Positions 15,451 through 63,506 of a stretch of 64,000 nucleotides of DNA are shown here, in pieces. Under the pieces are notes generated by a model, which saw only the letters and a program-made list of their open reading frames with translations, was not told the DNA's origin and made no database searches. Made by a program: the position numbers and the translations under genes. Each line of letters begins with the position of its first letter. The stretch's first letter is position 1. The DNA comes from a bacterium (GTDB taxonomy: Bacteria > Patescibacteriota > Saccharimonadia > CAILAD01 > GCA-016700035). The stretch covers positions 267,848-331,847 of the forward strand of contig CP064998.1 of NCBI GenBank assembly GCA_016700035.1. Direction: 5' to 3'.

Positions 15451-15589
15451 GCGTAACTAATAAAGCCTACATCAATATAGTTAACGTATATTAAAATATC
15501 ATGGCTATCAATAAATCATAGGCTTGCCATCTAAAATAATAGTAGTTATGATTAATGCAATAGTTAGAATAACTATATTTAATAAGCAT

Positions 15590-18151: not shown

Positions 18152-18390
18152 AAGGGGTGACTCAGAGCACTGTTGCTTAATAAGCAAACAACACTGTATT
18201 TGACGACCAATCTCTTGCATCTATAGCCCTAACCATAAGTACATTAATGTCTTGTATGAGAGAGTAGTTAGGTAGAGCATTAAATCAAGCACCCTCAAAA
18301 AACACCCAATCTACCCTCACACCCAATCTGGTTATGCTACAATACTAGAAAGAGTATAAGAGAAGAGTATTAAGAGGGTGTATAAAACAA

Positions 18391-21121
18391 GTGATATCAC
18401 GCAATAAATTACATACTGTTAGTTCTAAATTTAATAAAAAGCTACTACTAGCCCTTACATTATCAGTCCTATCTCTAGCAGTAGTCTGGACTACTGCCAT
18501 TCTAACCGAAACACATATTGCTCAAGCTGCCCCGGGTGATTGGCAATGGCAGAAGCGTAGTAATGGGATTGTGGGAGATGCCCTATATTCATTGTCCATA
18601 GCCAGCTCCACTGACGGCACTAAACTAGCTATGGCAAATTTGAACCCAGCAATAAATACTGGCTACATCTACACCTCCACCGACTCTGGTGCCAGTTGGA
18701 CCGAACAGAATAGCGCTGGCCAACGAACCTGGACATCCATCACCAGCTCAGCAGATGGCACTAAGCTAGCTGCTGTAGAAAATCATTGGGATGATAATCT
18801 AGGCCAAACAGTCGGCTCCATCTACACCTCCACCGACTCTGGCGTTAGCTGGAATGAACAAACCGCGGCTGGCTCCAGAGACTGGCAATTCATCACCAGC
18901 TCGGCTGATGGCACTAAGCTAGCCGCTGTAGTAAATGATGAGGATAATGGCGGTGGCTACATCTACACCTCCACCGATTCCGGTGCCACCTGGACCGAAC
19001 GCACTAGCGCTGGCCAACGAGAATGGCAATCCATAACCAGTTCAGCTGATGGCACTAAGCTAGCCGCTGTAGAAAACCATTGGGATAATAACTTAGGTCA
19101 ACAAGTTGGCTACATCTACACCTCCACCGATTCCGGTGCCACCTGGACCGAACGCACTAGCGCTGGCCAACGAGAATGGCAATCCATAACCAGTTCAGCT
19201 GATGGCACTAAGCTAGCCGCTGTAGAAAACCATTGGGATAATAACTTAGGTCAACAAGTTGGCTACATCTACACCTCCACCGACTCTGGTGCCAGTTGGA
19301 CCGAACAGAATAGCGCTGGCCAACGAACCTGGACATCCATCACCAGCTCAGCAGATGGCACTAAGCTAGCTGCTGTAGAAAATCATTGGGATGATAATCT
19401 AGGCCAAACAGTCGGCTCCATCTACACCTCCACCGACTCTGGTGCCAGTTGGACCGAACAGAATAGCGCTGGCCAACGAACCTGGACATCCATCACCAGC
19501 TCAGCAGATGGCACTAAGCTAGCTGCTGTGGCTGCCATGGATTCTGTCTATACTTCAACAAATTCCGGCGTTAGCTGGACTGAGCAAACCGTAATGGGTA
19601 GTAGAATGTGGTATTCGGTTGCTTCAGATAGTAGTGGTACTAAGCTAGCAGCTGCATCAATCTACGGCTACATCTACACCTCCACCGACTCAGGTGCCAC
19701 CTGGACCGAGCAAACTAGCTCTGGCCAACGAACCTGGGCATCCATAATCAGCTCGGCCGATGGCACTAAGCTAGCGGCTGTAGATGGTCTAGATAATAAC
19801 GGCTACATCTACACCTCCACTGACTCTGGCGCCAGCTGGACAGAACAAACTAGTGCTGGTCAACGAAACTGGAACTCCATAACCAGCTCGGCTGATGGCA
19901 CTAAGCTAGCCGCTGTAGATAATGATAACGGTAATGGCGGCTACATCTACACATCCACCGACTCTGGCGTTAGCTGGAATGAACAAACCGCGGCTGGCTC
20001 CAGAGACTGGCAATCCATCACCAGCTCGGCTGATGGCACTAAGCTCGCAGCTGTAGATAATAATAACGGCTACATCTACACCTCCACCGACTCTGGCGCC
20101 AGCTGGACCGAGCAAACTAGCTCTGGCCAACGAACCTGGGCATCCATAATCAGCTCGGCTGATGGCACTAAGCTAGCAGCTGTAGCTGGTGGCTTTGGTG
20201 ATGACGGCTACATCTACACCTCCACCGACTCTGGCGCCAGCTGGACAGAACAAACTAGCGCTGGTCAACGAGGCTGGTACTCTATAGCCAGCTCGGGTGA
20301 TGGCACTAAGCTAGCCGCTGTAGATAGTAATAACGGCTACATCTACACCTCCACCGATTCTGGCGCAAGCTGGACTGAGCAAACTAGTGCTGGTAGTAGG
20401 CTGTGGATTTCGGTTGCTAGCTCTAGCGCTGGAGATAAGCTAGTAGCATTAGCTCATTTTGGCAACATCTACACCGGCACCATAGAACAAAGAAGTAGTT
20501 GACCCACCAGAACCTCCAACTCCTCCAACCTCCAACACCTCCAACCTCACCACTCCCTCTAGCCCTATCTCAGCCTTCTCTCTCCGCCCAGTCTCTATCT
20601 CTACTCCCACAGGTACTAACATAACCTCTAGCTCTACAGTCCCAGAATCTAGCCTAGTAACTCAAGACCCTAACAACCAATACCCACTAGGTCTAGTAAA
20701 CTTTAGCTTTACTACTAACCAAAGCTCTAACCAAGTAGTCCTAACCTTCATAACTAATCTAACCCCAAACCAAGTAACACCTAAAAAGTATAACCCCAGT
20801 ACTAATACCTACACTAACTTACCAACTTCTGCTAATGCTGTAGTGAGTGAAACTACCATCGATGGTAAACATGCTCTAACCCTAACCTATACCATCATAG
20901 ACAATGGTGAACTAGACCTAGACCCTACAGCTGGTACTATCTCTGACCCAGTTGGTCTAGCGGTATCTAACTCTACCTATGACCAATTAGCAAGTACGGG
21001 GGAGAATACTCAACCAATACTACTAACGGCTGTGTTACTGCTAGTGAGTGGCATGATTATGATTGCTGGAGTTTTATGGGCATTTAGCAGAAGGAAGATA
21101 CATATCCAAGGGGGAAGGTAA
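18391..21121 (+). pseudogene. BNR/Asp-box repeat beta-propeller surface protein, frame disrupted by a 1-nt insertion near 20486-20494 (or a sequencing error)
   Basis: ORF 18391-20502 (703 aa, ~14 'IYTSTDSGxSWTEQ' Asp-box blades) stops at TGA. The downstream frame (20493-21121) encodes the stalk + LASTG + TM + RRK module that is contiguous in the intact paralogue 53848-56481. The paralogue reads 'atagaaggcgaagta' where this copy reads 'atagaacaaagaagta' (+1 nt). Confidence 0.55.
18661..19442 (+). repeat. Perfect intragenic direct repeats inside the BNR gene
   Basis: 182-nt identical copies at 18661-18842 and 19261-19442. Perfect tandem duplication of a 153-nt (51-aa blade) unit at 18955-19107 and 19108-19260. 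Read directly from the sequence. Confidence 0.85.
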
Positions 21122-21126
21122 TAACT

Positions 21127-23178
21127 GTGAGAAATTCAAGACTTATTAAATTAACTGCACTAACTAGACTAGCTAGCCTTACAAAAAACACTAACTACTT
21201 ATTACTATCCGTACTAATAACCCTAACTTCACTACTGCCCATACTACTACCAGCTACAGCAACAGCTGCACCATCCACTCCACCAGACTCTTGTTTTAGT
21301 TTTAATAGTGGCACTCAAACAATAGAGGATTATTATGATTACGAAGCCAACAACAATTCTAACCCTGCTTGCACCAGAGAAGTGATTATACCCAGCGCGA
21401 TTGGCGGCAATCTCGTTACTACTATTGGTTACGAGGCATTCTCTCAAAACCAACTCACCAGCGTCACCATCCCAAACTCCGTAACCTCTATTAGTGGCGA
21501 AGCTTTTAGTAGTAATCAACTCACCAGCATAACTATCCCTAACTCAGTCACTACTATTGGTTATTCTGCTTTCGCTGACAACCAACTCACCAGTGTTGTA
21601 ATACCTAACTCCGTGACTTCTATTGGTTCCGGTACCTTCCGCGACAACCAACTCACCAGTGTCACGATTGAGGGTAGTATTACAACAGCAGGGGGTAATG
21701 AATTTAGTAGTAACCCTATCCAAACCTTCACTTACGGCCTAGATACCTATACATCTTCAGACCCCCTAACAGAAGATTGTTTTGCCTTTGATGGCAGTAA
21801 TATAATAACTGGCTTTAACAAAGCAGATATAGCTACAATTAGAGACCACAGTAATGCTTGCTTAAACCCTAATGTAAATATACCTAGTACAATAGGCGGT
21901 AATTCTGTGACTACTATTGGTAACGAGGTTTTTATGTTAAGTCAAATCTCCAATGTCAATATACCAAATTCTGTTACAAGCATAGGTTTTGCAGCATTTG
22001 TCGGAAATAGACTCACCAGTGTTACTTTTCCTAACACGCTTTCTACTATTGGTGGATATGCTTTTAATCATAACCAAATTACTGAGGTAACTATTCCAGA
22101 CTCAGTTACTACATTAGGCTTACTTGCATTTGATCTTCAAACTAAACCAGGCGGAACAAGCTTGATGGATCTGCAAATGAGTGGACTTGACCCTCAAGTC
22201 ACTCAAGCCTTTATTGACAGCGTAATCTACACCAACATCTATGCCAGCCCTAGCCAAGTAACAGCTCTAAGTCTAGCTGATTCAGAATTGACCGAAGCAG
22301 ATATTATGAGCGAAGATATCAACGCCGACGGCGACCAAACAGACATAATCTCTGGCCAACTCATCAACCCAAGTAGAGTAACCGCCACCTACAAAGACAC
22401 AAACGGTAATACTATTGCCCCCAGCACTACAGCTACCGGCACAGGTTTGTCTTCCTACCTAGCAGTAGATAACCCAACCAATGATCTAGGCCTGTACTAC
22501 CGAGCTGGTGGTAGCTACACTGTACCAACCGCCCCTACCATTGCTGGCTACACTATCCAAACTACTCCAAGTAACATAGCTAGCCTATCTGCTGGAGACA
22601 ATCAAATCAACTATATCTATACAGCTAACAGCAACAATGAAGACAACACACTTTCCACACCTCTCTCCAACAACACCACCAGCTACCTAGTCTTGCCAGA
22701 TGATGTAACTAACCCTAGCTTTACTACTACACCAACTAACACTATCCCTAGTGACACAGCCTATTCCTTCCCAACTAGTCTAGTATCCTTTCAATTTGAT
22801 ACCACACCTGGATCAACTAAAGCTATAACCCTATACTTTGATCTTCCTGGTAACCCATCAGACTACACAGCCAGAAAGTATGACACCAATAACCATAGCT
22901 TTAGTACTATAACCTCAGCCACCATAACCAGAGAAACCTATAACAACAAATCTCTACTAAAACTAACCTACAACATCACCGATGGAGGTCTACTAGACCA
23001 AGACCACACAATCAACGGAACCATCATAGATCCAGTAGGTTTAGCTACTAACACAGTTGGTGCACCACAGACTGGAGTGGAGCGCTGGGGGAGTGGTTGG
23101 GTTGAGGATGCACTGGATGGAATTGTGGCATTTGGTATTGGTCTATGGAAACAGAGGACTGCTTTAGGTTGGTTTTGA
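21127..23178 (+). CDS. Surface protein with BspA-type leucine-rich repeats and C-terminal stalk domain
   Basis: Signal peptide (…LLPATATAAPSTPPDSCF). ~22-aa repeats 'NQLTSVTIPNSVTSIG..AF'. Stalk domain 'YTARKYD...LKLTYNITDGGLLDQD...IDPVGLA' then 'APQTG'. GTG start 5 nt after the BNR gene stop. Confidence 0.65.
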   Translation: MRNSRLIKLTALTRLASLTKNTNYLLLSVLITLTSLLPILLPATATAAPSTPPDSCFSFNSGTQTIEDYYDYEANNNSNPACTREVIIPSAIGGNLVTTIGYEAFSQNQLTSVTIPNSVTSISGEAFSSNQLTSITIPNSVTTIGYSAFADNQLTSVVIPNSVTSIGSGTFRDNQLTSVTIEGSITTAGGNEFSSNPIQTFTYGLDTYTSSDPLTEDCFAFDGSNIITGFNKADIATIRDHSNACLNPNVNIPSTIGGNSVTTIGNEVFMLSQISNVNIPNSVTSIGFAAFVGNRLTSVTFPNTLSTIGGYAFNHNQITEVTIPDSVTTLGLLAFDLQTKPGGTSLMDLQMSGLDPQVTQAFIDSVIYTNIYASPSQVTALSLADSELTEADIMSEDINADGDQTDIISGQLINPSRVTATYKDTNGNTIAPSTTATGTGLSSYLAVDNPTNDLGLYYRAGGSYTVPTAPTIAGYTIQTTPSNIASLSAGDNQINYIYTANSNNEDNTLSTPLSNNTTSYLVLPDDVTNPSFTTTPTNTIPSDTAYSFPTSLVSFQFDTTPGSTKAITLYFDLPGNPSDYTARKYDTNNHSFSTITSATITRETYNNKSLLKLTYNITDGGLLDQDHTINGTIIDPVGLATNTVGAPQTGVERWGSGWVEDALDGIVAFGIGLWKQRTALGWF

Positions 23179-43425: not shown

Positions 43426-43461
43426 TGGGTTAAGCCAGAAATAAAAGCATAACCAAAACCA

Positions 43462-50334: not shown

Positions 50335-50362
50335 TGGAAGCGAGTAGGAGGGTGAAACCATA

Positions 50363-51274: not shown

Positions 51275-51346
51275 CGGTTTTTGTGTTAGACTAATGGCGA
51301 TGCTTACTGCTTTGAAATAAACAAGGGGGTAGAAGCAAAAAGGAGG

Positions 51347-52462: not shown

Positions 52463-52487
52463 GCTATCTATAGAATAAATTATCAAC

Positions 52488-53814: not shown

Positions 53815-53847
53815 TAAAGTATTCTAATGAGGGAGCTATACTTTTTA

Positions 53848-56481
53848 ATGAACCAACTAATAGCAAAGTTAATACATCAGCCATCAACCAATCTCAAAAC
53901 TAATCTATCTACAACTACCCAGTCCATCAAAACTAACAAACTATCTCTAGCCTTCCGTCTAACTCTAGGCCTAGTCTTATTCTCTGCTGTACTAATAGGC
54001 ATCAACCACCAATCCAAAGCATTAGCAGAAGTAAACAACAACTACACCTGGACCCAACGCAAGAATGGGTTTGTTGGCGATCAAATGAGCTGGTCCTCTA
54101 TCACCAGCTCCGCCGACGGCACCAAACTAGCTGCTGTAGCTAGGAACGGCTCCATCTACACCTCGGCTGATTCTGGCACCACCTGGACTGAACAAACGGC
54201 GGCTGGCTCCAGAGACTGGCTCTCCATCACCAGCTCGGCTGATGGCACTAAACTAGTTGCTGTAGTAAGCGGTGGCTCCATCTACACCTCCACCGACTCC
54301 GGCACCACCTGGACAGAGCAAACGGCGGCTGGATCCAGATACTGGATCTCCATCGCCAGCTCCGCTGACGGCACCAAACTAGCTGCAGTAGATAATGACG
54401 GTGGCTCCATCTACACCTCGGCTGATTCTGGCGCTACCTGGAGTGAACAAACAGCGGCTGGATCCAGATACTGGACATCCATCGCCAGCTCCGCTGATGG
54501 CACTAAGCTAGCCGCTGTAGCAAATGGCGGCAGCATCTACACCTCGGCTGATTCTGGCACCACCTGGACAGAGCAAACGGCGGCTGGATCCAGATACTGG
54601 ATCTCCATCGCCAGCTCCGCTGACGGCACCAAACTAGCTGCAGTAGCAAATGGTGGCTCCATCTACACCTCGGCTGATTCTGGCACCACCTGGACAGAGC
54701 AAACGGCGGCTGGATCCAGATACTGGTACTCCATCACCAGCTCCGCCGACGGCACTAAGCTAGCTGCTGCAACATACGGCGGCTCCATCTACACCTCCAC
54801 TGATTCTGGCGCTACCTGGAGTGAACAAACGGCGGCTGGCTCCAGAAGCTGGTACTCCATCACCAGCTCCGCCGACGGCACTAAACTAGCTGCTGTAGCT
54901 AGGAACGGCTCCATCTACACCTCTACTGACTCTGGTGCCACCTGGACAGAGCAAACGGCGGCTGGATCCAGATACTGGATCTCCATCGCCAGCTCCGCTG
55001 ACGGCACTAAACTAGCAGCCGTAGCATATAACGGCTACATCTACACCTCCACCGACTCTGGCGTTACCTGGACAGAACAAACCGCGGCTGGCTCCAGAAA
55101 CTGGTACTCCATCACCAGCTCCGCCGACGGCACCAAACTAGCTGCAGTAGATAATGACGGTGGCTCCATCTACACCTCGGCTGATTCTGGCGCTACCTGG
55201 AGTGAACAAACAGCGGCCGGTTCCAGAGACTGGTCCTCCATCACCAGCTCCGCCGACGGCACTAAGCTAGCTGCTGCAACATACGGCGGCTCCATCTACA
55301 CCTCCACTGATTCTGGCGCTACCTGGAGTGAACAAACGGCGGCTGGCTCCAGAAACTGGCGCTCCATCACCAGCTCGGCTGATGGCACTAAACTAGTTGC
55401 TGTAGTAAGCGGTGGCTCCATCTACACCTCCACCGACTCCGGCACCACCTGGACCGAACAAACTAGCGCTGGCTCCAGAAGCTGGCAATCCATCACCAGT
55501 TCCGCCGACGGCACCAAACTAGCTGCTGTAGTAAATGATGGCTCCATCTACACCTCGGCTGATTCTGGCGTAACTTGGTTATTGGTAAGTTTAGCTCCAG
55601 ATATTTACCCGCTTACTGCTACATATGCCAGTTCTAATAGCCAGCTATTTATTGGAGGAGCCAAGATAATAGATATGGATAATATGATATTTGAAAATGC
55701 CCTCTACACTTCAAATGACAACGGTCAGACTCTTACCGATATATCTATGCCAAACTCTTCAAAGTATTGGATCTCCATCACCAGCTCCGCTGACGGCACC
55801 AAACTAGCTGCTGTAGTAAGTGGCGGCTCCATCTACACCGGCAGCATAGAAGGCGAAGTAGTAGATCCACCAACTCCACCACCAAGCTCCAACACCGCTC
55901 AACTCACCACCCCCACTAGCCCTCTCTCTACCTTCTCTCTAAAACCAGTATCTCTAACCACCCCCACTGGCACTACCATTAACTCTAGCTCTACTGTCCC
56001 AGAATCTTCCCTAGTAACCCAAGACAACAACAACCAATACCCACTAGGCCTAGTAAACTTTAGCTTTACCACTAACCAAAGCTCTAACCAAGTAGTATTA
56101 AACTTTGAAACAGACTTAAAACCAAACCAAGTAACACCCAGAAAGTATAATCCTAACTCTAAGACCTATACCAACTTACCTACTAACGCTAATGTATCTA
56201 TAACCGAAACCACTATAAATAATAAACACTATCTAGTTCTAACCTATACCATCATAGACAATGGTGAACTAGACCTCGATCCAGCAGCTGGTACTATCTC
56301 TGACCTAGTCGGACTAGCCGTATCTAACTCTACCTATGACCAACTAGCGAGTACTGGGGAGAATACTCAACCAATACTACTAGCTACGGTACTATTTCTA
56401 GTAAGTGGCATAATTATAGTTGCTGGAGTTCTAGGGGTATTTAGTAGAAGGAAGATGCATATCCAAGTGGGAAGGCAATAA
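53848..56481 (+). CDS. BNR/Asp-box repeat beta-propeller surface protein with stalk domain and LASTG sorting signal (intact paralogue)
   Basis: ~14 blades 'SIYTS(A/T)DSG(A/T)TW(S/T)EQTAAGSR.W.SI(T/A)SSADGTKLAAV'. PT-rich linker and stalk '…LTYTIIDNGELDLDP…'. Ends 'LASTGENTQPILL' + TM + 'SRRK'. Start is set at the M conserved with 63646. Confidence 0.65.
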   Translation: MNQLIAKLIHQPSTNLKTNLSTTTQSIKTNKLSLAFRLTLGLVLFSAVLIGINHQSKALAEVNNNYTWTQRKNGFVGDQMSWSSITSSADGTKLAAVARNGSIYTSADSGTTWTEQTAAGSRDWLSITSSADGTKLVAVVSGGSIYTSTDSGTTWTEQTAAGSRYWISIASSADGTKLAAVDNDGGSIYTSADSGATWSEQTAAGSRYWTSIASSADGTKLAAVANGGSIYTSADSGTTWTEQTAAGSRYWISIASSADGTKLAAVANGGSIYTSADSGTTWTEQTAAGSRYWYSITSSADGTKLAAATYGGSIYTSTDSGATWSEQTAAGSRSWYSITSSADGTKLAAVARNGSIYTSTDSGATWTEQTAAGSRYWISIASSADGTKLAAVAYNGYIYTSTDSGVTWTEQTAAGSRNWYSITSSADGTKLAAVDNDGGSIYTSADSGATWSEQTAAGSRDWSSITSSADGTKLAAATYGGSIYTSTDSGATWSEQTAAGSRNWRSITSSADGTKLVAVVSGGSIYTSTDSGTTWTEQTSAGSRSWQSITSSADGTKLAAVVNDGSIYTSADSGVTWLLVSLAPDIYPLTATYASSNSQLFIGGAKIIDMDNMIFENALYTSNDNGQTLTDISMPNSSKYWISITSSADGTKLAAVVSGGSIYTGSIEGEVVDPPTPPPSSNTAQLTTPTSPLSTFSLKPVSLTTPTGTTINSSSTVPESSLVTQDNNNQYPLGLVNFSFTTNQSSNQVVLNFETDLKPNQVTPRKYNPNSKTYTNLPTNANVSITETTINNKHYLVLTYTIIDNGELDLDPAAGTISDLVGLAVSNSTYDQLASTGENTQPILLATVLFLVSGIIIVAGVLGVFSRRKMHIQVGRQ

Positions 56482-56483
56482 CT

Positions 56484-58052
56484 GTGAGTAATCTAAGACT
56501 GACTAAATTAACTACACTAAATAGACTAACAAGTTTATTTAAGAGAACTAACTACCTAGCCCTTAGCCTAATAATAAGCCTAACCTCAATTCTACCCATA
56601 CTACTACCAGCCTCGGCAAATGCTGCTCCATCCACCCCACCAGATTCTTGCTTTAACTTTGATTCAGGTACAGGCACTATTACCGATTATTATGACTATG
56701 AGGGCAACAACAACTCTAACCCCGCCTGCACCAGAGAACCCATTATACCCGGCACGATTGGTGGCAATGTAGTAACTGTAATTGGTAGCTCTGCCTTCTC
56801 TAGCAAACAACTCACCAGCGTTACAATTGGTAACTCTGTAACTTCTATTGATGAAGGTGCCTTCGCTGGCAACCAACTCACCAGCGTCATCATTGGTAAC
56901 TCTGTAGCTTCTATTGGTGGCTCTGCTTTTAATGCCAATATGCTTGAAACTGTAACTTTATCTAGTAATTTGTCGGGTCTTACGAGTGGTACAATTTTTA
57001 CCAATAATAAGATCCAAGAAATGCAAATACCTGATTCAATAACACTTATTGATACTTATACTTTTTTTGCACAGTCGCCAATAGGTGCAGGCTCTTATTA
57101 TGCTTTTATGAATAATGATTACTCTGCTCTAAACCAATACATGGCGACTAGTTGGTATGCTCGGTTGTTTACTAGCCCGGGGAATCCTAATAATCTTACA
57201 GATTCTTATGCTGTGGAGAGTGTCTTTGGTATGGATATGAACTCTGATGGTGATATGAACGACTCAATTGGTGGCCACCTCATCAACCCAAGTAGAGTAA
57301 CCACCAACTACAAAGACACAAATGGCAACACCATTGCCCCCAGCACCACAGCTACTGGCACAGGTTTATCTTCCTACCTAGCAGTAGACAACCCAACTAA
57401 TAACCTAAGCTTGTACTACAAAGCTGGTAATAGCTACACCGTACCACCAGCCCCATTTATACCTGGCTACACCATCCAAACCACACCAAGTAACATAGCT
57501 AGCCTAACAGCTGGTAATAACTCTATAGACTATATCTATACAGCTAACAGTAACAATGAAGACAACACACTCTCCACCCCACTCTCCAACAGCACCACTA
57601 GCTACCTAGTCCTACCAGATGATGTAACTAACCCTAGCTTTACTACTACACCAACTAACACTATCCCCAGTGATACAGCCTACTCCTTCCCAACTAGCCT
57701 AGTATCCTTTCAATTCGACACCACACCTGGATCAACTAAAGCTATAACTCTGTACTTTGATCTTCCCGGTAACCCATCAGACTACACAGCCAGAAAGTAC
57801 GACACCAATAACCATAGCTTTAGTACCATAGCCTCGGCAACCATAACTAGAGAAACCTATAACAACAAATCTCTACTAAAACTAACCTACAACATCACAG
57901 ACGGAGACAACCTAGATCAAGACCACACAGTCAACGGAACAATCATAGACCCAGTAGGTTTAGCTACTAACACAGTTGGTGCACCACAGACTGGAGTGGG
58001 GCGATGGGAGAGTAGTTGGGTTGCTACAATTCTTAGCTTCTTTGGGCTATAG
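56484..58052 (+). CDS. BspA-type leucine-rich-repeat surface protein (shorter paralogue of 21127-23178)
   Basis: Signal peptide, LRR_5-like repeats, and a stalk domain nearly identical at nt level to 22330-23100. Ends '…GAPQTGVGRWESSWVATILSFFGL*'. Confidence 0.6.
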   Translation: MSNLRLTKLTTLNRLTSLFKRTNYLALSLIISLTSILPILLPASANAAPSTPPDSCFNFDSGTGTITDYYDYEGNNNSNPACTREPIIPGTIGGNVVTVIGSSAFSSKQLTSVTIGNSVTSIDEGAFAGNQLTSVIIGNSVASIGGSAFNANMLETVTLSSNLSGLTSGTIFTNNKIQEMQIPDSITLIDTYTFFAQSPIGAGSYYAFMNNDYSALNQYMATSWYARLFTSPGNPNNLTDSYAVESVFGMDMNSDGDMNDSIGGHLINPSRVTTNYKDTNGNTIAPSTTATGTGLSSYLAVDNPTNNLSLYYKAGNSYTVPPAPFIPGYTIQTTPSNIASLTAGNNSIDYIYTANSNNEDNTLSTPLSNSTTSYLVLPDDVTNPSFTTTPTNTIPSDTAYSFPTSLVSFQFDTTPGSTKAITLYFDLPGNPSDYTARKYDTNNHSFSTIASATITRETYNNKSLLKLTYNITDGDNLDQDHTVNGTIIDPVGLATNTVGAPQTGVGRWESSWVATILSFFGL

Positions 58053-58160
58053 GTTAGCAAGGTATATTTGAATAATTCAAATGATGCTTTAGGGTGTTGA
58101 CTTGCTTGCTATGTTTTCTAGCTATATCTTAGAATTGGTATTAGTAAATAAGGTGGGTGG

Positions 58161-60833
58161 GTGAAGAAAAAGTTACAACGAAGAACAGCAGTAGTTAAAA
58201 GTCATATTGTGGCTCGGCTGGAAGTAGTTATTCCGTGCCATAACGAAGCCGAGACGCTACGGGATAATATTGAAAAAGTTGTTGCGTTTTTGGCGCAAAA
58301 TTTTTCTGATGACTGGTATATATCCATCGTAGATAGTGGTAGTACTGATGACACGCGAAAGATCGCTCAAGATTTAGCTCATAATTATAAGTCGGTGAAA
58401 GTACTTACTATAAATGAGCCTGGTCGAGGGTTGGCGCTTCGGATGGCAATTCGAGCCAGTCGGGCAGAATTTCTAGTATACATGGATGAAGATTTGTCGA
58501 CCGATTTGGAAATTGTTCCTCAGATACTAGAAGCACTTGATAAGCAACCAAAGACTTTTATAACTGCTAGTCGATTCATGCGAGAGTCGGTAGTTCGTCG
58601 TAGTTGGTTAAGGCGGGTTATGTCGATTGGCTATTCGTGGCTAGCACGGATATTTTTATCAATTAACGTTAAAGACCTGCAGTGTGGCTGTAAGGGTTTT
58701 CGCGTGAGTGACGTGAAGCCGATATTGGCTAAGGTGCAGGATAATCAGTGGTTTTTTGATACAGAGCTTTTTTATAGGGCGCGACAAGATGGATATAGCC
58801 TAGTGGAGCTGCCAGCACACTGGCAAGAGTCAAGCCGGACAAGCGTACGGTATGGCTCAACGATTTATAGATTTCTACGCGGGTTGAATCGTTTGGCACA
58901 TGAACGCAGTAAGTGGCGCCATCTGGATGCAGTAATTTTGGCCTCTCTACTAATATTGTTTTCAGGCCTGACAATACCCGCACTGTTAAAAAATGGTTGG
59001 GCAAATTCTTACTATACAGCCGCGGCATTAGCGGGCGCTAAAAGTTGGCAAGCCTTTTTCTTTGGGGGTTTTGATATGGCTGGTTATATATCCGTAGATA
59101 AGCCGCCTCTTGCAATATGGGTATCGGCCTTATCGGTGCGGATTTTAGGAACGCATGGTTGGGCGGTGCTTTTGCCCCATGTTTTAGCCGGCATAGCGAC
59201 AATGGCTGTAGTTTATGTGATGGTGAGGCGTTATTTTGGTACATTATCAGCTTGGGTGGCAGGTGTGTTTTTTGCCTTTACGCCAATTGCGGTAGTGGTT
59301 TTTAGATACAACAATCCTGATGCCGTTTTAACTCTTTGCCTAACATTAGCCACTTACGCTTTTTTGCGAACCCTCGAACGGCCAAGTTGGCGCTGGTCAA
59401 TATTGGCCGGCAGTATGGTTGGTGCGGCCTTTATGACGAAGATGCTCCAAGCGCTGATAGTGGTTCCGGTATTTATAGTGGGTTATTTTATGTTTGCCAA
59501 GCCAAATTGGCGTCAGCGCTGGCGCGATCTAATTGTGGCGTCATCAGCATTCTTAATTGCCTCTTTGTGGTGGCCGATTGTAGTGTGGGTAACGCCAGCA
59601 AGCAGTAGGCCATACATCGGCGGAACGGTTACGAATAATATATGGGAATTGATTGTTGGTTATAACGGATTAAATCGGTTACTTGGCAAGGATTGGTATC
59701 AGCCCACTGGCGAATTGCTGGGGGCAGCATTTGGTGGCCATATTGGAATCTTGCGATTTTTTAATGAGGCTTTTGGCTCGGTGATAGCCTGGGCACTCCC
59801 GTTAGCGTTATTGCTTGGAGGATTGTTGGTGACGCAGATGTGGCAAGCAAGAGCTTCGAAGCAATTTCGGGCAGTTGTGGTTTGGCTATTATTCGTCGGT
59901 TTGCATATTCTAACGATTAGCTTTACAAAAGGTACAATTCACCCCCACTATGCTGTTGTGATAGCTCCTATGGTAGCCTCGTTAGTTGCGGTGGCTTTTT
60001 GGTATTTTCGCGAAATAATTTTATTGCGCGACTATGATTCATGGGGGCTACTCTTAGGGATATTAATTATTGTTTTTAGCGCTAGTTTATTGCCTCTGTT
60101 TTTCTGGAAGGGAAGAGTATGGCCTCTATGGATAGTTGCGGTATCGATTGGCCTGGCGGTATTGGTGTTTGGTTTTTACGTGGTAGGGCGATTACGGAAA
60201 AGTAGTAGATTATTGTTGATTACTTGCTGGCTAGCTAGCTTGGCGCTGATTTTTGCACCGGCCGTATCAAGCTTAGCATCGGCACAATCTCAGCAGAGTG
60301 GGTTTATTATTTCAGCCGAGCCACTATCGGCAGATGTGTTAAAGCTTTGGCCTCCAGCTACTGAGTTACCGCCATTGATAAAGGACTTTTTGGAGCAGAA
60401 TAGGGGGTCTACCAAGTGGATTGCCACTTCAATTACTAGCTATGATGTATCGGCAGTAGAGATTTCAACTGGCCAGCCGGCTATGGCAATTGGTGGCTTT
60501 AGTGGTGTTGATAACCCGATGAGTTTGAATGAGTTTATAGATAAAGTTAAGTCTGGTGAGGTACGTTATTTTATAGTTAATCGGCGCCAATCTAGTGAGG
60601 TTAGGCAATGTGGGCTGACTTTTCGATTTGATGCTCGCAAGGAAAATAATAGCCGCACGCGAGTTGAGCAGTGTGATGTAGCCAAACTAGATCATGATGA
60701 AAAATCATCCAATAATATTGCTGTTTGGGCGCAACAACACAGTCGTATTGGCGAGGTGGAGTTTAAAGACTGGGAAATTTACGACTTGAGCTCTAAACTT
60801 GTGCCACCTAATGCTGCCGGGCCGACTCATTAA
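58161..60833 (+). CDS. Fused glycosyltransferase: N-terminal GT2 (polyprenol-phosphate sugar synthase-like) + C-terminal GT-C fold PMT/ArnT-like (PMT_2/YkcB-type) domain
   Basis: GT2 part: 'VVIPCHNEAETL', 'ISIVDSGSTDDT', 'YMDEDLSTD'. The C-terminal ~550 aa has ≥11 TM helices and an early 'DKPPLAIW' loop typical of PMT/ArnT family GT-C enzymes. Confidence 0.7.
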   Translation: MKKKLQRRTAVVKSHIVARLEVVIPCHNEAETLRDNIEKVVAFLAQNFSDDWYISIVDSGSTDDTRKIAQDLAHNYKSVKVLTINEPGRGLALRMAIRASRAEFLVYMDEDLSTDLEIVPQILEALDKQPKTFITASRFMRESVVRRSWLRRVMSIGYSWLARIFLSINVKDLQCGCKGFRVSDVKPILAKVQDNQWFFDTELFYRARQDGYSLVELPAHWQESSRTSVRYGSTIYRFLRGLNRLAHERSKWRHLDAVILASLLILFSGLTIPALLKNGWANSYYTAAALAGAKSWQAFFFGGFDMAGYISVDKPPLAIWVSALSVRILGTHGWAVLLPHVLAGIATMAVVYVMVRRYFGTLSAWVAGVFFAFTPIAVVVFRYNNPDAVLTLCLTLATYAFLRTLERPSWRWSILAGSMVGAAFMTKMLQALIVVPVFIVGYFMFAKPNWRQRWRDLIVASSAFLIASLWWPIVVWVTPASSRPYIGGTVTNNIWELIVGYNGLNRLLGKDWYQPTGELLGAAFGGHIGILRFFNEAFGSVIAWALPLALLLGGLLVTQMWQARASKQFRAVVVWLLFVGLHILTISFTKGTIHPHYAVVIAPMVASLVAVAFWYFREIILLRDYDSWGLLLGILIIVFSASLLPLFFWKGRVWPLWIVAVSIGLAVLVFGFYVVGRLRKSSRLLLITCWLASLALIFAPAVSSLASAQSQQSGFIISAEPLSADVLKLWPPATELPPLIKDFLEQNRGSTKWIATSITSYDVSAVEISTGQPAMAIGGFSGVDNPMSLNEFIDKVKSGEVRYFIVNRRQSSEVRQCGLTFRFDARKENNSRTRVEQCDVAKLDHDEKSSNNIAVWAQQHSRIGEVEFKDWEIYDLSSKLVPPNAAGPTH

Positions 60834-60917
60834 ATAGAAGACCTTGTTTATTGGTATTAAACTAGTTATGATTACATGGAAGATATATTAATCGTAGTCA
60901 GTTAAGGATAAGGACAT

Positions 60918-63506
60918 ATGCCAACAAAAACTCCCAGTCTAATCAATAGTAGATCCAACATCAGTTTACGCTGGAACAATCTATGGCTACTAGTGGCTGT
61001 ATTTGTGGTGCTCTCATTGGCAGTTGGTTATTTTGCTCTACCATATGTACGGGCTGCTGGTGAAATTAACCAAATAGGGTGTATTAACTGTCCGCCAGAT
61101 GGGGCATTTGGCTTACGAGATGCTGGCGATGTAGCTATCGACACGAGTGGTAATGTATATGTTACGCGCAATGATAATACGAGCCATATAGTTAAGCTTG
61201 ACTCTGCCGGTAATATGGTTAGTTCATTCGGGCCATACGGAACTGGTAACGCTGAGTTTGAGGGGGTTCGGGGAATTGCAGTTGATAGCTCCAATAGTAT
61301 TTATGTGATAGAGGGTACATATAATAAGGTTAAAAAGTTTAATTCAGACGGTACATTTGTTTTAGAGTGGGACGGTAGTGCAGGTGCTGGCGGTCAACTC
61401 AGTAATCCTGCCGATCTCGCGGTGGACTCCAGTGGTAATATCCTTGTGGTAGATACCAATAATAATCGTATTCAAAAGTTTAACAGCTCAGGCGTGTATC
61501 AATCAGATTTTGGCAGTAATGGTACTGGTGATGGGCAGTTTAGTTATCCTTCCGATCTCACGGTGGACTCCAGTGGTAATATTTATGTTGCAGATACCGA
61601 CAATCATCGTATTCAAAAGTTTAACAGCTCAGGCGTGTATCAGTCACAGTTTGGCAGTAATGGTACTGGTGATGGGCAGTTTAGTTATCCACGCGGGATT
61701 ACAATAGATAGTGCAGATAATATTTATGTTGCAGACACCTCTAATAATCGCATTCAAAAGTTTAATAGCTCTCATGTATTCCAGACGGAATGGGGTAGTA
61801 GCGCAAGTTCTTATGGTGCTGAACCGGGAGAGATGAGCGGGCCTAAAGGTATAGCACACGATAGTAGTAATAATATATATATCGCCGATCAATATAACAA
61901 TCGCGTACAGAAATTTACTTCAACTGGTAGCCTAATTACCCAATATGGAACTACAGGATTAAGCTCATACGGTGGCTATGAAGACTCTTATGGTAATGGT
62001 GGGTCTGGTAATAATGTGCGTTTCAATACACCCGCTGGAACAGCAGTAGATCATGATGGTAATACCTATGTGAGTGATGCAGATAATAGTAGGATTATGA
62101 AGTTTAATAGCGCTGGTAATTTTGTTAGCCAGATTGCTAGTAGCTCAGTGGGCTCATATGGCGAGCCATCCAATGGTTCGAATAATGGAGAGTTTGAGTA
62201 TCCTATGGGTATGGTGACCGATGCTAGCAATAACCTTTATGTTGCAGATGTTGGCAATAACCGCATCCAGAAATTTAACAGCTCAGGAGCTCATCAACTT
62301 AGCTTTGGTGGCAACGGACCATATGGAGGTGGTAGTGGGGATGGTCAACTTATGATGCCATTCGACGTTGCCTTGGATGGGACGGGCAATATATATGTTG
62401 CCGATATGTCCAATGACCGTTTGCAGAAGTTTGATTCGAGTGGGAACTATCTTGCTAAGACTACTAGTGCTGTGTCTTCACTGGGTGGAGTGGTGTCGGC
62501 TGAAAGTTTTGGTGATGTTCAGATGCTTGGCGGTGTTGATGCTAGTGAAGCTGGAGGGCCGGTATCTGTGGCGGTTGGACCAGATGGAAATGTTTGGGCG
62601 CTGACGTATGGTAAGCTACTTAAATACAGCGCCAATCTAGAGCCAATTCAAAATTGGGATATTTCAGATGGCTTTACGTATATGAGCATCGGAGTTAGGG
62701 TGGATAAGGATAATAATGTTTATATTGGGCAATTTAATGACAGTGGCCCTGGTGGTCGGTTACTAAAATTTGATTCAAGCGGCAATCAGGTGGGCGTATG
62801 GGATGATGGGTATCGTATGGATGAATTTATGCCTATGCTCCCAGCAATCGATCCGGAGATTGATGGACGCTTGGCGGTGCCTAGTGTGATGCAGAATAAA
62901 GTTGTCTTCCTCTGCGACACCGATGTCTCCACCAATAACTGCTCTGGCCCTAACGATGGTGGTGGCAACTCTGGTGGTGGAGAGGAATCTAGTACCTACT
63001 TCTACAACAACTCATCCAATGATTCCATCACTTATCTAATAGCCCCAGACACTGCTACTAACTTCTCTCTGTCTGGTGTAGACTACGCTAGTTTACAAAA
63101 AGATGGATCTAATCTCTTCCCAGCTGGTCTCACAAGCTTTAACTTTGACGCCACCCCTAACTCTGCTACCACCATTACTATCTACTACGATCTACCCGGT
63201 GCTCCAACAGGCTACACAGCTCGTAAATACAATACCGCCAATCAAACCTATGCCGATATTCCAGGAGCTACCATTACCCGAGAAGACTACAGCGGTAAGA
63301 GTCGTCTAAAGCTAACTTACTCCATCACAGACAATGGACCACTCGATCAAGATCCTACTCCAGGCCACGTAGTAGACCCAGTTGGTCTAGCTACTACCTC
63401 TGCCTTTCTAGCTAGTACTGGTCTAAACTTCTGGCTCTATGTAGTTGGAGCCATCAGCCTACTTGGTGCTGGTAGCTATCTAGTCCGTCAGTACAGTCGG
63501 CGGTAG
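60918..63506 (+). CDS. NHL-repeat surface protein with stalk domain and LASTG sorting signal (paralogue of 15590-18151)
   Basis: 'NNRIQKFNSSG' NHL motifs. C-terminal 590 nt are about 93 % identical (by eye) to 17575-18151. Ends 'LASTGLNFWLYVVGAISLLGAGSYLVRQYSRR'. Confidence 0.7.
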   Translation: MPTKTPSLINSRSNISLRWNNLWLLVAVFVVLSLAVGYFALPYVRAAGEINQIGCINCPPDGAFGLRDAGDVAIDTSGNVYVTRNDNTSHIVKLDSAGNMVSSFGPYGTGNAEFEGVRGIAVDSSNSIYVIEGTYNKVKKFNSDGTFVLEWDGSAGAGGQLSNPADLAVDSSGNILVVDTNNNRIQKFNSSGVYQSDFGSNGTGDGQFSYPSDLTVDSSGNIYVADTDNHRIQKFNSSGVYQSQFGSNGTGDGQFSYPRGITIDSADNIYVADTSNNRIQKFNSSHVFQTEWGSSASSYGAEPGEMSGPKGIAHDSSNNIYIADQYNNRVQKFTSTGSLITQYGTTGLSSYGGYEDSYGNGGSGNNVRFNTPAGTAVDHDGNTYVSDADNSRIMKFNSAGNFVSQIASSSVGSYGEPSNGSNNGEFEYPMGMVTDASNNLYVADVGNNRIQKFNSSGAHQLSFGGNGPYGGGSGDGQLMMPFDVALDGTGNIYVADMSNDRLQKFDSSGNYLAKTTSAVSSLGGVVSAESFGDVQMLGGVDASEAGGPVSVAVGPDGNVWALTYGKLLKYSANLEPIQNWDISDGFTYMSIGVRVDKDNNVYIGQFNDSGPGGRLLKFDSSGNQVGVWDDGYRMDEFMPMLPAIDPEIDGRLAVPSVMQNKVVFLCDTDVSTNNCSGPNDGGGNSGGGEESSTYFYNNSSNDSITYLIAPDTATNFSLSGVDYASLQKDGSNLFPAGLTSFNFDATPNSATTITIYYDLPGAPTGYTARKYNTANQTYADIPGATITREDYSGKSRLKLTYSITDNGPLDQDPTPGHVVDPVGLATTSAFLASTGLNFWLYVVGAISLLGAGSYLVRQYSRR

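What the first reader, a model, noticed from the sequence alone, without database searches (positions are those of the whole stretch)
58161..60833. GT2 + GT-C (PMT/ArnT-like) fused glycosyltransferase embedded among Ser/Thr/Pro-rich surface proteins
The 890-aa ORF fuses a GT2 polyprenol-phosphate sugar synthase-like domain to a ≥11-TM PMT_2/ArnT-type GT-C domain. These are the lipid-sugar donor synthase and the periplasmic-face transferase of a 'three-component' glycosylation system, joined in one polypeptide. The arrangement is like the separate YkcC/YkcB or CsbB/YfhO (GtlA/GtlB) pairs of Firmicutes and the Ppm1/Pmt pair of Actinobacteria. It sits between cassette genes whose products carry long PT/ST-rich linkers, such as PTPPPSSNTAQLTTPTSPLSTFSLKPVSLTTPTGTT. 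That suggests O-glycosylation of these surface proteins, or of a wall glycopolymer. No flippase is visible nearby.
Basis: partly seen in the sequence, partly recalled or inferred. Interest (0 to 1): 0.55.

Follow-up and report, generated by a model that had tools for sequence, protein, structure and literature searches.

The report
Fused lipid-sugar synthase and surface glycosyltransferase
One 890-residue membrane protein of a Saccharibacterium joins the enzyme that loads a sugar onto a lipid carrier inside the cell to the enzyme that transfers that sugar onto a cell-surface target outside; the fusion is real, typical of this phylum and unstudied, and its target (surface proteins or wall polymer) is still unknown.

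Summary
ORF 58161-60833 (+, 890 aa) is an N-terminal GT2 domain fused to a 13-TM ArnT/PMT-like GT-C with an extracytoplasmic YkcB_C domain. The GT2 half is nearest to DPMS, ArnC and GtrB. Catalytic residues are invariant across the family.

The organism is a Saccharibacterium. All 21 intact Saccharibacteria loci examined carry the same single-ORF fusion. In Actinomycetota the homologs are two genes, GT2+GtrA_DPMS_TM and PMT_2+YkcB_C, with rare triple fusions. The Saccharibacteria form is therefore a three-component glycosylation system that has lost the 4-TM GtrA module from the polypeptide. GtrA genes occur separately in relatives, but none is in this window.

The family-wide conserved neighbour is an OmpR-type two-component system (about 60 of 88 loci). 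Surface-protein adjacency is limited to this clade and one other lineage, although eight other loci have a small S/T/Q-rich membrane protein immediately downstream.

The ortholog in Southlakia epibionticum (SEML1_0793) is annotated "hypothetical" and is non-essential by Tn-seq.

The mechanism is well supported. The acceptor is unresolved: protein O-glycosylation about 0.45, wall glycopolymer or lipid about 0.40.

Verdict: a new variant of a known kind, of moderate interest.

The parts
58097..58135 (+). Promoter-like element (TTGACT ... TAGAAT) in the 108-nt gap upstream of the gene
   Evidence: Read from the sequence. The consensus scan lists an overlapping site at 58106-58135. Site counts in the region do not exceed shuffled expectation, so this is weak evidence.
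58150..58156 (+). Shine-Dalgarno-like AAGGTGG, 4 nt before the GTG start
   Evidence: Read directly from the sequence.
58161..60833 (+). Whole gene: 890-aa GT2-GT-C-YkcB_C fusion protein
   Evidence: ORF list; Pfam; 426 homologs with the same architecture; structure model with pLDDT 83.
58218..58910 (+). Cytoplasmic GT2 (GT-A fold) domain, residues about 20-250. It contains the invariant D109-x-D111 and the D172-x-Q-C-G motif, and its C-terminal helix leads into TM1.
58920..60287 (+). 13-TM GT-C membrane domain, residues 254-709
58995..59156 (+). First extracytoplasmic loop (EL1, residues 279-332), carrying invariant N278, N282, Y285, D305 and D313-K314-P-P
   Evidence: Alignments A1 and A2. 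D313/K314 align to ArnT E84/K85. The roles of the ArnT residues are taken from PMC7801869.
60288..60830 (+). C-terminal extracytoplasmic domain (residues 710-890), comprising YkcB_C (742-811) and a clade-specific Cys-containing insert
   Evidence: Pfam PF24878 at 64 bits against a 27-bit cut-off. The equivalent region of ortholog SEML1_0793 was assigned to the ArnT periplasmic-domain ECOD family in the PMC10633639 supplement. The insert is visible in A2 and has low pLDDT at 822-836.
53827..56481 (+). Candidate acceptor: BNR/sortilin propeller surface protein with a PT/ST-rich stalk (0.68 S+T+P), a choice-of-anchor U domain and a LASTG-TM-basic tail
56484..58052 (+). Candidate acceptor, immediately upstream: LRR_5 + MucBP surface protein with an S/T-rich stalk (0.57), a choice-of-anchor U domain and an APQTG signal
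60918..63506 (+). Downstream neighbour: NHL propeller surface protein with a choice-of-anchor U domain and a LASTG-TM-basic tail. It has no strongly S/T/P-rich linker.
15524..23178 (+). Paralogous surface-protein cassette (NHL, BNR, LRR+MucBP) with no glycosyltransferase. These are further possible acceptors.
   Evidence: Pfam. Choice-of-anchor U probes hit 15524-18151 and 21127-23178, and their C-terminal regions are nearly identical to those of the second cassette.

Best explanation
The gene encodes a single-polypeptide version of a 'three-component' transmembrane glycosylation system.

Step 1 is inferred from homology. The cytoplasmic GT2 domain is DPMS/GtrB/ArnC-like and is anchored by the GT-C helices instead of its own GtrA/DPMS-type TM module. 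It transfers a hexose from a nucleotide sugar to polyprenyl phosphate. The hexose is most likely mannose or glucose, but its identity was not determined.

Step 2 is inferred. The lipid-linked sugar is flipped by a flippase encoded elsewhere, because the 4-TM GtrA module that sits on the GT2 gene in Actinomycetota homologs is absent here.

Step 3 is inferred from fold and conserved residues. The 13-TM ArnT/PMT-like GT-C domain has its invariant EL1-EL5 residues and its YkcB_C domain on the outer face. It transfers the sugar to an extracytoplasmic acceptor.

For the acceptor in this clade I commit to the Ser/Thr-rich stalks of the neighbouring sortase-anchored 'choice-of-anchor U' surface proteins, that is, protein O-glycosylation. 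This is only marginally favoured over a wall glycopolymer or lipid.

Steps 1 and 3 together I rate at about 0.85. The whole statement including the protein acceptor I rate at about 0.45.
For: Architecture and fold:
- Pfam finds GT2, PMT_2 and YkcB_C.
- PDB sequence hits are DPMS, ArnC and GtrB for the N-terminal half and ArnT for the C-terminal half.

Active sites are intact and invariant in 41 sequences:
- GT2: N28-E29, D109-x-D111, D172-x-QCG.
- GT-C: D305, D313-K314-PP, D387, K427, R506, H594-P-x-Y597.

Mapping to ArnT (residue roles from PMC7801869):
- D313/K314 correspond to E84/K85.
- D387 corresponds to D158.
- K427 corresponds to K203.
- Y597 corresponds to the Y345-type Tyr.

The 13-TM topology puts GT2 inside and all mapped GT-C residues and YkcB_C outside, and it obeys the positive-inside rule.

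The modules are functionally linked:
- In Actinomycetota they are overlapping genes, GT2+GtrA_DPMS_TM and PMT_2+YkcB_C.
- Triple fusions exist in three different orders: P0305, L022 and L075.

A flippase acting in trans is plausible:
- A stand-alone GtrA lies 1 kb upstream of the fusion in L006.
- There are three stand-alone GtrA genes in S. epibionticum.
- One GtrA serves three GT pairs in L. lactis (PMC8035078).

Evidence for a protein acceptor:
- The gene sits among surface proteins in WIN, L001-L004 and L008.
- In eight other Saccharibacteria loci the gene immediately downstream encodes a single-pass protein with an S/T/Q/G/P-rich tail.
- The PMT model PF02366 scores above its threshold.
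- Streptococcal GT2/GT-C pairs O-glycosylate extracytoplasmic S/T-rich regions, and the Pgf cluster encodes both the enzymes and their adhesin substrates (PMC12041528).
Against: - No biochemical data exist for any member of this family.
- Surface-protein adjacency is absent in most loci. The conserved partner is a two-component system.
- The PMT_2-type GT-Cs of Gram-positive bacteria tabulated in PMC8035078 all act on teichoic acids or wall polysaccharides, and the streptococcal protein O-glycosyltransferases in PMC12041528 are YfhO-type.
- S/T/P-rich linkers are common in unrelated window proteins, and the NHL neighbours lack them.
- No PMT_4TMC domain was found.
- The canonical EL1 Asp-Glu (ArnT D55/E56) seems to be replaced by Ala281-Asn282, on a low-confidence alignment.
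- No flippase is present in the 64-kb window.
- The ortholog SEML1_0793 is dispensable for epibiotic growth in co-culture.
Confidence: 0.45

Rival explanations
1. The enzymatic mechanism is the same, but the acceptor is a cell-wall glycopolymer (teichoic-acid-like or wall polysaccharide) or a membrane glycolipid. The system would then be a two-component-system-regulated envelope-remodelling module, analogous to PmrAB-ArnT or to B. subtilis YkcBC. Its position among surface-protein genes in this clade would be incidental.
For: - An OmpR-type RR and an HK lie on the same strand within 5 kb in 12 of 23 Saccharibacteria loci and 44-48 of 65 Actinomycetota loci. An unbiased neighbour census finds them as the only broadly conserved partners.
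- In L005 and in S. epibionticum the gene sits with a MacB-type ABC transporter, PadR, PspC, MarR, RR and HK.
- In L006 and L007 it lies a few kb from a Bac_transf/GT4/Wzy/LCP/ManC wall-polysaccharide cluster.
- ArnT is the best structural match.
- The PMT_2 GT-Cs of Gram-positive bacteria tabulated in PMC8035078 all modify LTA, WTA or wall polysaccharides.
- A ykcB knockout alters LTA, glycolipid content and vancomycin susceptibility (bioRxiv 10.1101/2022.08.30.505962).
- The window encodes an LCP ligase at 3877-5253.
Against: - In this window there is no two-component system or polysaccharide cluster next to the gene. It lies inside a surface-protein cassette, and this arrangement is kept in relatives at 64% and 50% identity.
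- Recurrent S/T-rich membrane or surface proteins lie adjacent in 14 of 23 Saccharibacteria loci.
- The YkcB acceptor itself is unknown.
Confidence: 0.4
2. The two halves do not form a donor-acceptor relay. Either the GT-C half is a non-catalytic anchor or acceptor-binding scaffold, because the canonical loop-1 Asp-Glu is replaced. Or the GT2 half glycosylates something other than polyprenyl phosphate on the cytoplasmic face.
For: - A low-confidence hhalign places A281-N282 at the ArnT D-E position.
- The TM1-JM1 segment does not align to ArnT at significant confidence.
- NCBIfam gives no equivalog-level assignment for either half.
Against: - Five other ArnT functional positions are conserved and invariant: D313/K314, D387, K427, Y597 and R506.
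- The same non-canonical EL1 is shared at 45-57% identity by most of the best 150 of 732 representatives with E <= 1e-30. It is therefore a family trait under strong selection, not decay.
- The GT2 half's closest solved relatives are all polyprenyl-phosphate glycosyltransferases.
- Linkage to GtrA_DPMS_TM modules in relatives only makes sense for a lipid-linked sugar relay.
Confidence: 0.08
3. The fusion is an artefact, such as a frameshift, a misassembly, or two genes read through.
For: None found. One Saccharibacteria locus (L023) shows the reverse situation, an apparent frameshift that splits the gene.
Against: - An identical 890-aa protein occurs independently in public data, and 426 homologs share the architecture.
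- All 21 intact Saccharibacteria loci from different assemblies have one continuous ORF.
- The junction is covered in one stretch by about 11 independent 50%-identity representatives.
- The AlphaFold model shows a continuous helix from the GT2 domain into TM1.
Confidence: 0.01

Closest known systems
Actinomycetota operon [GT2+GtrA_DPMS_TM] + [PMT_2+YkcB_C] (uncharacterised; examples are L032 in Mycobacteroides franklinii and L071 in Streptomyces sp.)
   Same: - It is the closest sequence relative outside Saccharibacteria, at about 33-45% identity.
- It has the same GT2, GT-C and YkcB_C domains and the same invariant residues, including the NGxANS(Y/F)Y...D...VDKPP EL1 motif.
- It is usually next to an OmpR-type two-component system, as in most Saccharibacteria loci.
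   Different: It consists of two overlapping genes, and its GT2 carries its own 4-TM GtrA/DPMS module. In the window protein that module is missing and GT2 is joined directly to TM1 of the GT-C.
B. subtilis YkcC/YkcB pair (multi-component transmembrane glycosylation system; acceptor unknown)
   Same: A GT-A polyprenyl-P-sugar synthase works with a PMT_2-type GT-C. The window protein matches the Pfam YkcB_C domain that is named after YkcB (PMC8035078).
   Different: YkcC and YkcB are separate proteins. Their function is not established: C55-P-Glc is proposed as donor, and a knockout changes LTA, glycolipid content and vancomycin susceptibility. I had no B. subtilis sequence to compare directly.
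ArnC/ArnT (with the ArnE/F flippase) lipid A aminoarabinose system
   Same: - The E84/K85, D158, K203 and Y345-type positions are conserved.
- Both have a C-terminal periplasmic domain of the same ECOD family.
- In most family members the logic is also a regulated envelope modification controlled by a two-component system.
   Different: - The window has no arnA/B/D genes, and no lipid A is expected in a Saccharibacterium (general knowledge).
- The D55/E56 motif cannot be aligned and is probably Ala-Asn.
- The enzymes are separate in E. coli but fused here.
Actinobacterial Ppm1/Pmt and eukaryotic DPMS/PMT protein O-mannosylation
   Same: - The GT2 half's best solved relative is a Dol-P-Man synthase: 5mlz at 23% identity over 260 residues.
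- S/T/P-rich extracytoplasmic segments are the classical acceptors (general knowledge).
   Different: - There is no PMT_4TMC or MIR domain.
- The loop-1 DE motif is not evident.
- PMT_2 scores far better than PMT, at 114 against 34 bits.
- From my own knowledge, not tested here: M. tuberculosis Ppm1 is fused to an Lnt-like domain, not to the GT-C.
Streptococcal GtrB/PgtC2 and PgfS/PgfM1 systems that O-glycosylate Ser/Thr-rich extracytoplasmic regions
   Same: - They use a GT2 Und-P-sugar synthase plus a GT-C transferase.
- The acceptors are S/T-rich disordered regions of membrane and sortase-anchored proteins.
- The Pgf cluster encodes the enzymes next to their adhesin substrates (PMC12041528).
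- There is a weak NCBIfam hit to PgfS.
   Different: Their GT-Cs are YfhO-family, not PMT_2/YkcB-like, and the proteins are separate. The PgfS match is far below the cut-off, at 32 against 500 bits.

Membership tests
Three-/multi-component transmembrane glycosylation system (GT-A synthase + flippase + GT-C) | A membrane-associated GT-A/GT2 enzyme that makes a polyprenyl-phosphate-sugar | tested here: met
   PF00535. The closest solved relatives are DPMS, ArnC and GtrB. The DxD motif and catalytic-Asp motif are invariant. Activity itself was not tested.
Three-/multi-component transmembrane glycosylation system (GT-A synthase + flippase + GT-C) | A multi-spanning GT-C glycosyltransferase with conserved acidic residues in an extracytoplasmic loop | tested here: met
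   [not shown]
Three-/multi-component transmembrane glycosylation system (GT-A synthase + flippase + GT-C) | A dedicated flippase (GtrA-type or Wzx-type) | tested here: inconclusive
   There is none in the 64-kb window, and the GtrA module is absent from the polypeptide. In relatives, GtrA is fused in Actinomycetota, lies 1 kb away in L006, and is present at other loci in S. epibionticum. The rest of this genome is not visible.
YkcB-like GT-C (PMT_2 + YkcB_C) | PMT_2 domain above the Pfam gathering score | tested here: met
   114.4 bits against a 26.1-bit cut-off.
YkcB-like GT-C (PMT_2 + YkcB_C) | C-terminal YkcB_C domain above the gathering score | tested here: met
   64.4 bits against a 27-bit cut-off, at residues 742-811.
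YkcB-like GT-C (PMT_2 + YkcB_C) | A stand-alone GT-C encoded next to a separate GT2 partner (YkcC-like) | tested here: not met
   The GT2 is in the same polypeptide. Stand-alone forms dominate the wider family.
ArnT (lipid A Ara4N transferase) | Functional residues E84/K85, D158, K203 and Y345 | tested here: met
   Their counterparts are D313/K314, D387, K427 and Y597, by profile and hhalign alignment, and all are invariant. Residue roles come from PMC7801869.
ArnT (lipid A Ara4N transferase) | D55/E56 motif at the start of EL1 | tested here: inconclusive
   The segment is not aligned at significant confidence. A forced, low-confidence alignment puts A281-N282 there. A 3-D superposition is needed.
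ArnT (lipid A Ara4N transferase) | Ara4N pathway context (arnA/B/C/D) and a lipid A acceptor | tested here: not met
   No arn-like genes were found among the window ORFs scanned. The NCBIfam ArnC model scores 31.5 bits against a 529-bit cut-off.
Pmt / GT39 protein O-mannosyltransferase | PMT domain (PF02366) | tested here: met
   34.1 bits against a 22.7-bit cut-off, but it overlaps a much stronger PMT_2 hit.
Pmt / GT39 protein O-mannosyltransferase | C-terminal PMT_4TMC region (and MIR domains in eukaryotes) | tested here: not met
   There is no such Pfam hit. The C-terminus is YkcB_C instead.
Pmt / GT39 protein O-mannosyltransferase | Demonstrated transfer of mannose to Ser/Thr of secreted proteins | not testable with these tools
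   This requires glycoproteomics or enzymology.
DPMS/GtrB-type polyprenyl-phosphate GT2 | Its own C-terminal TM anchor (GtrA_DPMS_TM, or two TM helices) | tested here: not met
   No PF04138 hit in the window protein, and the local GtrA HMM gives E 0.67 on this ORF. Only one TM separates GT2 from EL1. The actinobacterial homologs do have the module.

The most novel reading that the evidence does not exclude
The direct GT2-GT-C fusion may be a self-sufficient transmembrane glycosylation machine. On this reading, the loss of the GtrA/DPMS 4-TM module means the fused enzyme passes or flips the polyprenyl-phosphate-sugar from its own cytoplasmic active site to its own outward-facing active site, without a dedicated flippase. 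Saccharibacteria would use it to glycosylate the stalks of the adhesins that mediate attachment to their actinobacterial hosts. The system would have been acquired from, or shared with, that host phylum.
Probability: 0.1. Interest if true: 0.8.

Novelty: new variant of a known kind. Interest (0 to 1): 0.45.

Why it matters
Three-component glycosylation systems decorate teichoic acids, wall polysaccharides, LPS and surface proteins, and they shape phage, antibiotic and host interactions. Two questions about them are still open: how the lipid-linked sugar crosses the membrane, and what the GtrA/DPMS TM module actually does.

This family offers a natural experiment on those questions. The same three modules occur split, triple-fused in three orders, and, throughout Saccharibacteria, fused with the GtrA module deleted.

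Saccharibacteria are ultrasmall epibionts that depend on surface contact with Actinomycetota. In this lineage the enzyme is embedded in a cassette of sortase-anchored propeller and LRR proteins, so it is a concrete candidate for adhesin glycosylation.

The question is directly testable. The ortholog SEML1_0793 is non-essential in the genetically tractable Southlakia epibionticum.

The conserved link to a two-component system in two phyla also suggests an unrecognised regulated envelope-modification module in Actinomycetota, including mycobacteria and streptomycetes.

Tried and rejected
- No tRNA or Rfam family was found in the window.
- NCBIfam gave no equivalog-level name for the fusion, the actinobacterial GT pair or the two-component system. 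All hits were far below their cut-offs.
- Literature searches found no description of a GT2-GT-C fusion or of this protein. The searches were Saccharibacteria + GT-C; GtrA/GT-C/fusion; Saccharibacteria + mannosyltransferase; GT-C/GT2/fused; and GtrA/GT39/TCS/Streptomyces. The main text of the Saccharibacteria Tn-seq paper does not mention it either.
- The look-up of P0056 (Nanosynbacter) context failed because it is not on record. The cluster look-up returned no source names.
- The afdb50 fold library was unavailable.
- Mapping the ArnT D55/E56 equivalent by sequence failed at significant confidence. Only a low-confidence forced alignment was obtained.
- The terminator and promoter scan gave counts at or below shuffled expectation.
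- I first read the genome-contig hits (query residues 20-805 matched) as showing the fusion to be widespread in Actinomycetota. ORF inspection showed these are two genes in different frames.
- A midpoint-rooted NJ tree of the GT-C core shows the fused Saccharibacteria proteins as one clade. Only 10 of them passed the filter and there was no outgroup, so this is indicative only.


Full report
**1. Observation**

A Shine-Dalgarno-like AAGGTGG precedes the start, and a promoter-like TTGACT...TAGAAT pair lies in the 108-nt upstream gap. Site counts in the region do not exceed shuffled expectation, so the promoter evidence is weak.

Pfam finds these domains:
- Glycos_transf_2 at residues 22-186 (E 2e-24)
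- PMT_2 at residues 313-476 (E 8e-33)
- PMT at 34 bits against a 22.7-bit cut-off
- YkcB_C at residues 742-811 (E 9e-18)

The three flanking genes encode a BNR propeller, an LRR_5+MucBP protein and an NHL propeller. Each ends in an NCBIfam 'choice-of-anchor U' domain followed by LASTG or APQTG, a TM helix and a basic tail. A paralogous NHL-BNR-LRR cassette with no glycosyltransferase lies at 15.5-23.2 kb.

SecA (33450-36062) places the organism among Candidatus Saccharibacteria/Patescibacteria. Its named relatives are 65-70% identical.

**2. The fusion is real and typical of the phylum**

- An identical protein and 426 homologs exist. All of the best 120 are 778-937 aa and carry PF00535 + PF13231 + PF24878. 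One is named 'glycosyltransferase family 39 protein [Candidatus Nanosynbacter featherlites]'.
- In 21 of 21 intact Saccharibacteria loci the three domains lie in one ORF. L023 looks like a frameshifted copy.
- An exhaustive search of 1.84 billion representatives used a junction-spanning query, residues 120-440. Only about 11 representatives matched across the junction in a single stretch. Most of the best 150 (of 732 at E <= 1e-30) are stand-alone GT-Cs that match only the GT-C part, at 45-57% identity.
- The direct fusion is therefore a lineage-restricted variant of a much larger YkcB-like family.

**3. What the two halves are**

PDB sequence search:
- GT2 half: P. furiosus dolichyl-phosphate mannose synthase 5mlz (E 3.8e-13, aligned through residue 269), then ArnC and GtrB.
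- GT-C half: ArnT 5ezm.

An AlphaFold model built on a 41-sequence alignment has pLDDT 83 and pTM 0.74.

|---|---|---|

Invariant residues in 41 sequences:
- GT2: N28-E29, D109-x-D111, D172-x-Q-C-G, WFFD200-x-E.
- GT-C: N278, N282, Y285, D305, D313-K314-P-P, D387, K427, R483, Y501-N-G, R506, H594-P-x-Y597.

Profile-to-sequence and hhalign alignments to ArnT give these correspondences. The roles of the ArnT residues are those summarised in PMC7801869.
- D313/K314 correspond to E84/K85.
- D387 corresponds to D158.
- K427 corresponds to K203.
- Y597 corresponds to the Y345-type Tyr.

A 13-TM topology derived from the model's helices puts GT2 inside. It puts all these residues and the YkcB_C domain outside, and basic residues cluster at the cytoplasmic ends.

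One deviation stands out. The TM1-JM1 segment does not align to ArnT at significant confidence. A forced, low-confidence alignment places A281-N282 where ArnT has the 'absolutely critical' D55-E56. The same NGxANS(Y/F)Y motif is invariant in the actinobacterial homologs, so it is a family trait and not decay.

**4. Relatives reveal the third component**

A scan of species-representative genomes returned at least 595 relatives, and the best 80 were kept. These are Saccharibacteria, many Actinomycetota and one MAG labelled Melainabacteria.

In Actinomycetota the region is not a fusion. It is two overlapping genes:
- GT2 + GtrA_DPMS_TM (PF04138)
- PMT_2 + YkcB_C

Among the 65 non-Saccharibacteria loci (two single-frame cases confirmed by Pfam):
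- 44 have GT2-GtrA immediately upstream of the GT-C.
- 19 have another arrangement, mostly GT-C first with a GtrA-bearing ORF downstream.
- 2 are single-frame triple fusions: L022 (GT2-PMT_2-GtrA) and L075 (PMT_2-GT2-GtrA).

P0305 is GT2-GtrA-PMT_2-YkcB_C.

The alignment shows that the stand-alone actinobacterial GT-C starts just where the window protein's GT2 ends. The Saccharibacteria form therefore equals the full system with the 4-TM GtrA module removed. Because that module has an even number of TM helices, its removal leaves the topology unchanged.

This Rosetta-stone pattern is the strongest evidence that the three modules act in one pathway.

GtrA is not lost from the phylum:
- L006 has a stand-alone GtrA (PF04138, E 8.5e-20) 1 kb upstream of its fusion.
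- S. epibionticum has three GtrA genes at other loci.

In this window none was found by a local GtrA HMM over six frames or by Pfam scans of 49 ORFs.

A midpoint-rooted NJ tree of the GT-C core places the fused Saccharibacteria proteins in one clade. This is indicative only.

**5. Genomic context and the acceptor question**

Close relatives at 64% and 50% identity keep the gene between large NHL, Big_7 and unannotated surface proteins, with a sortase nearby. L008 also has BNR and Big_7/deacetylase proteins carrying choice-of-anchor U domains.

More distant Saccharibacteria do not. An unbiased census of neighbours in 88 loci found only two broadly conserved partner families, a histidine kinase (60 loci) and an OmpR-type response regulator (56 loci). 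They are almost always on the same strand as the GT genes, and they are found in both phyla.

In eight Saccharibacteria loci the gene immediately after the fusion encodes a single-pass protein of about 140-160 aa with an S/T/Q/G/P-rich tail. A small wHTH protein follows in 13 loci, then the RR and HK.

The supplement of the Saccharibacteria Tn-seq paper (PMC10633639) lists the ortholog SEML1_0793:
- It is 2592 nt and carries PF13231, PF00535, PF02366 and PF13641.
- Its ECOD domains are 5mlz-like, STT3-TM-like and ArnT-periplasmic-like.
- It is annotated 'hypothetical protein'.
- It is scored non-essential in all three columns.
- It is flanked by MarR, RR and HK on one side and a MacB-type ABC transporter on the other.

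Within the window, S/T/P-rich 40-aa stretches occur in the BNR (0.68) and LRR (0.55-0.57) proteins. They do not occur in the NHL proteins (0.35-0.38). They also occur in unrelated proteins, for example 43642-44829 at 0.68.

Published precedents point both ways:
- The PMT_2-type GT-Cs of Gram-positive bacteria tabulated in PMC8035078 act on LTA, WTA or wall polysaccharide, and YkcBC is unassigned.
- Streptococcal GT2/GT-C pairs (with YfhO-type GT-Cs) O-glycosylate extracytoplasmic S/T-rich regions. The Pgf cluster co-encodes the enzymes and their adhesin substrates (PMC12041528).

**6. Mechanism and probabilities**

What is shown:
- The architecture, the fold and the conserved active-site residues on the expected sides of the membrane.
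- The evolutionary linkage of the three modules.

What is inferred:
- Synthesis of a polyprenyl-P-hexose. The sugar is unknown. DPMS is the nearest solved enzyme, and YkcC is proposed to make C55-P-Glc.
- Flipping by a flippase acting in trans.
- Transfer of the sugar outside the membrane.

I rate the relay mechanism at about 0.85.

For the acceptor of this particular gene:
- Protein O-glycosylation of neighbouring surface-protein stalks: about 0.45.
- Wall glycopolymer or lipid, as part of a regulated envelope-remodelling module: about 0.40.
- Other: the remainder.

**7. Novelty**

The kind of system, a three- or multi-component transmembrane glycosylation system, is well known. The protein family is in public databases, where it is annotated 'glycosyltransferase family 39' or 'hypothetical'. 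One ortholog has been domain-annotated in a supplement.

I found no paper that describes or discusses any of the following:
- the direct GT2-GT-C fusion
- its relationship to the GtrA-bearing actinobacterial operon
- the link to a two-component system

I therefore classify it as a new variant of a known kind. It is of moderate interest and is testable in an existing genetic system.

Noticed in passing
window 15524-23178 and 53827-63506: There are two paralogous surface-protein cassettes: NHL-BNR-LRR+MucBP, and BNR-LRR+MucBP-[GT]-NHL. Their C-terminal choice-of-anchor U domains and LASTG/APQTG sorting signals are nearly identical. The BNR copy at 18391-20502 ends without the anchor.
   Followed up: partly
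loci L005-L007, L010-L015, L018, L020, L021 (Saccharibacteria) and about 44-48 of 65 Actinomycetota loci, e.g. L071 5501-7870: An OmpR-type response regulator and a histidine kinase lie on the same strand within 5 kb of the GT genes in two phyla. They are the only broadly conserved neighbours. No named equivalog matches them.
   Followed up: partly
L006 12618-13025, L007 12738-13184, and equivalents in L014-L019: A small single-pass membrane protein with an extremely S/T/Q/G/P-rich tail, and no Pfam or NCBIfam match, is encoded immediately downstream of the fusion in eight Saccharibacteria loci. It is a possible dedicated acceptor or regulator.
   Followed up: partly
L022 7977-11240; L075 7806-11228; protein P0305: These are single-frame triple fusions of the three modules in three different orders: GT2-PMT_2-GtrA, PMT_2-GT2-GtrA and GT2-GtrA-PMT_2-YkcB_C. 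The L075 order implies a different TM parity, which was not examined.
   Followed up: partly
window about 60576-60710 (protein residues about 806-850): There is an insert of about 40 aa with two conserved Cys (..QCG...QCD..) in the extracytoplasmic YkcB_C domain. It is shared only with the close relatives L001 and L003 and is absent from other Saccharibacteria and Actinomycetota. pLDDT is low at residues 822-836. It may reflect a change of acceptor in the clade where the gene sits among surface proteins.
   Followed up: no
window 40001-44000: This is a GC-rich island (0.58-0.60, against about 0.45 elsewhere). ORFs at 39607-41097, 41243-42073 and 42197-43348 have no convincing Pfam match, contain Pro-rich low-complexity tracts, and are overlapped by many alternative-frame ORFs. 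The upstream 1033-aa ORF at 36102-39203 also has no Pfam match.
   Followed up: no
window 5256-6035: A 259-aa protein with about nine hydrophobic segments and no Pfam match starts 3 nt after the LCP (LytR_cpsA_psr) ligase gene at 3877-5253. It may be a membrane partner in wall-polymer attachment.
   Followed up: partly
window 49630-53615: FtsE and FtsX are followed by two tandem paralogous coiled-coil + CHAP (PcsB-like) hydrolases. This is a duplicated FtsEX-PcsB-type division hydrolase module.
   Followed up: no
window 30237-31793: The lysyl-tRNA synthetase is of the class I type (Pfam tRNA-synt_1f, E 7e-95), not the usual bacterial class II type.
   Followed up: no
window 58995-59010 (residues 278-285) and all relatives: The whole YkcB-like family, including stand-alone GT-Cs at 45-57% identity, has an invariant N-G-x-A-N-S-(Y/F)-Y at the start of EL1, where ArnT and PMT have the catalytic Asp-Glu. 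This suggests a non-canonical active-site arrangement within the GT-C clan.
   Followed up: partly
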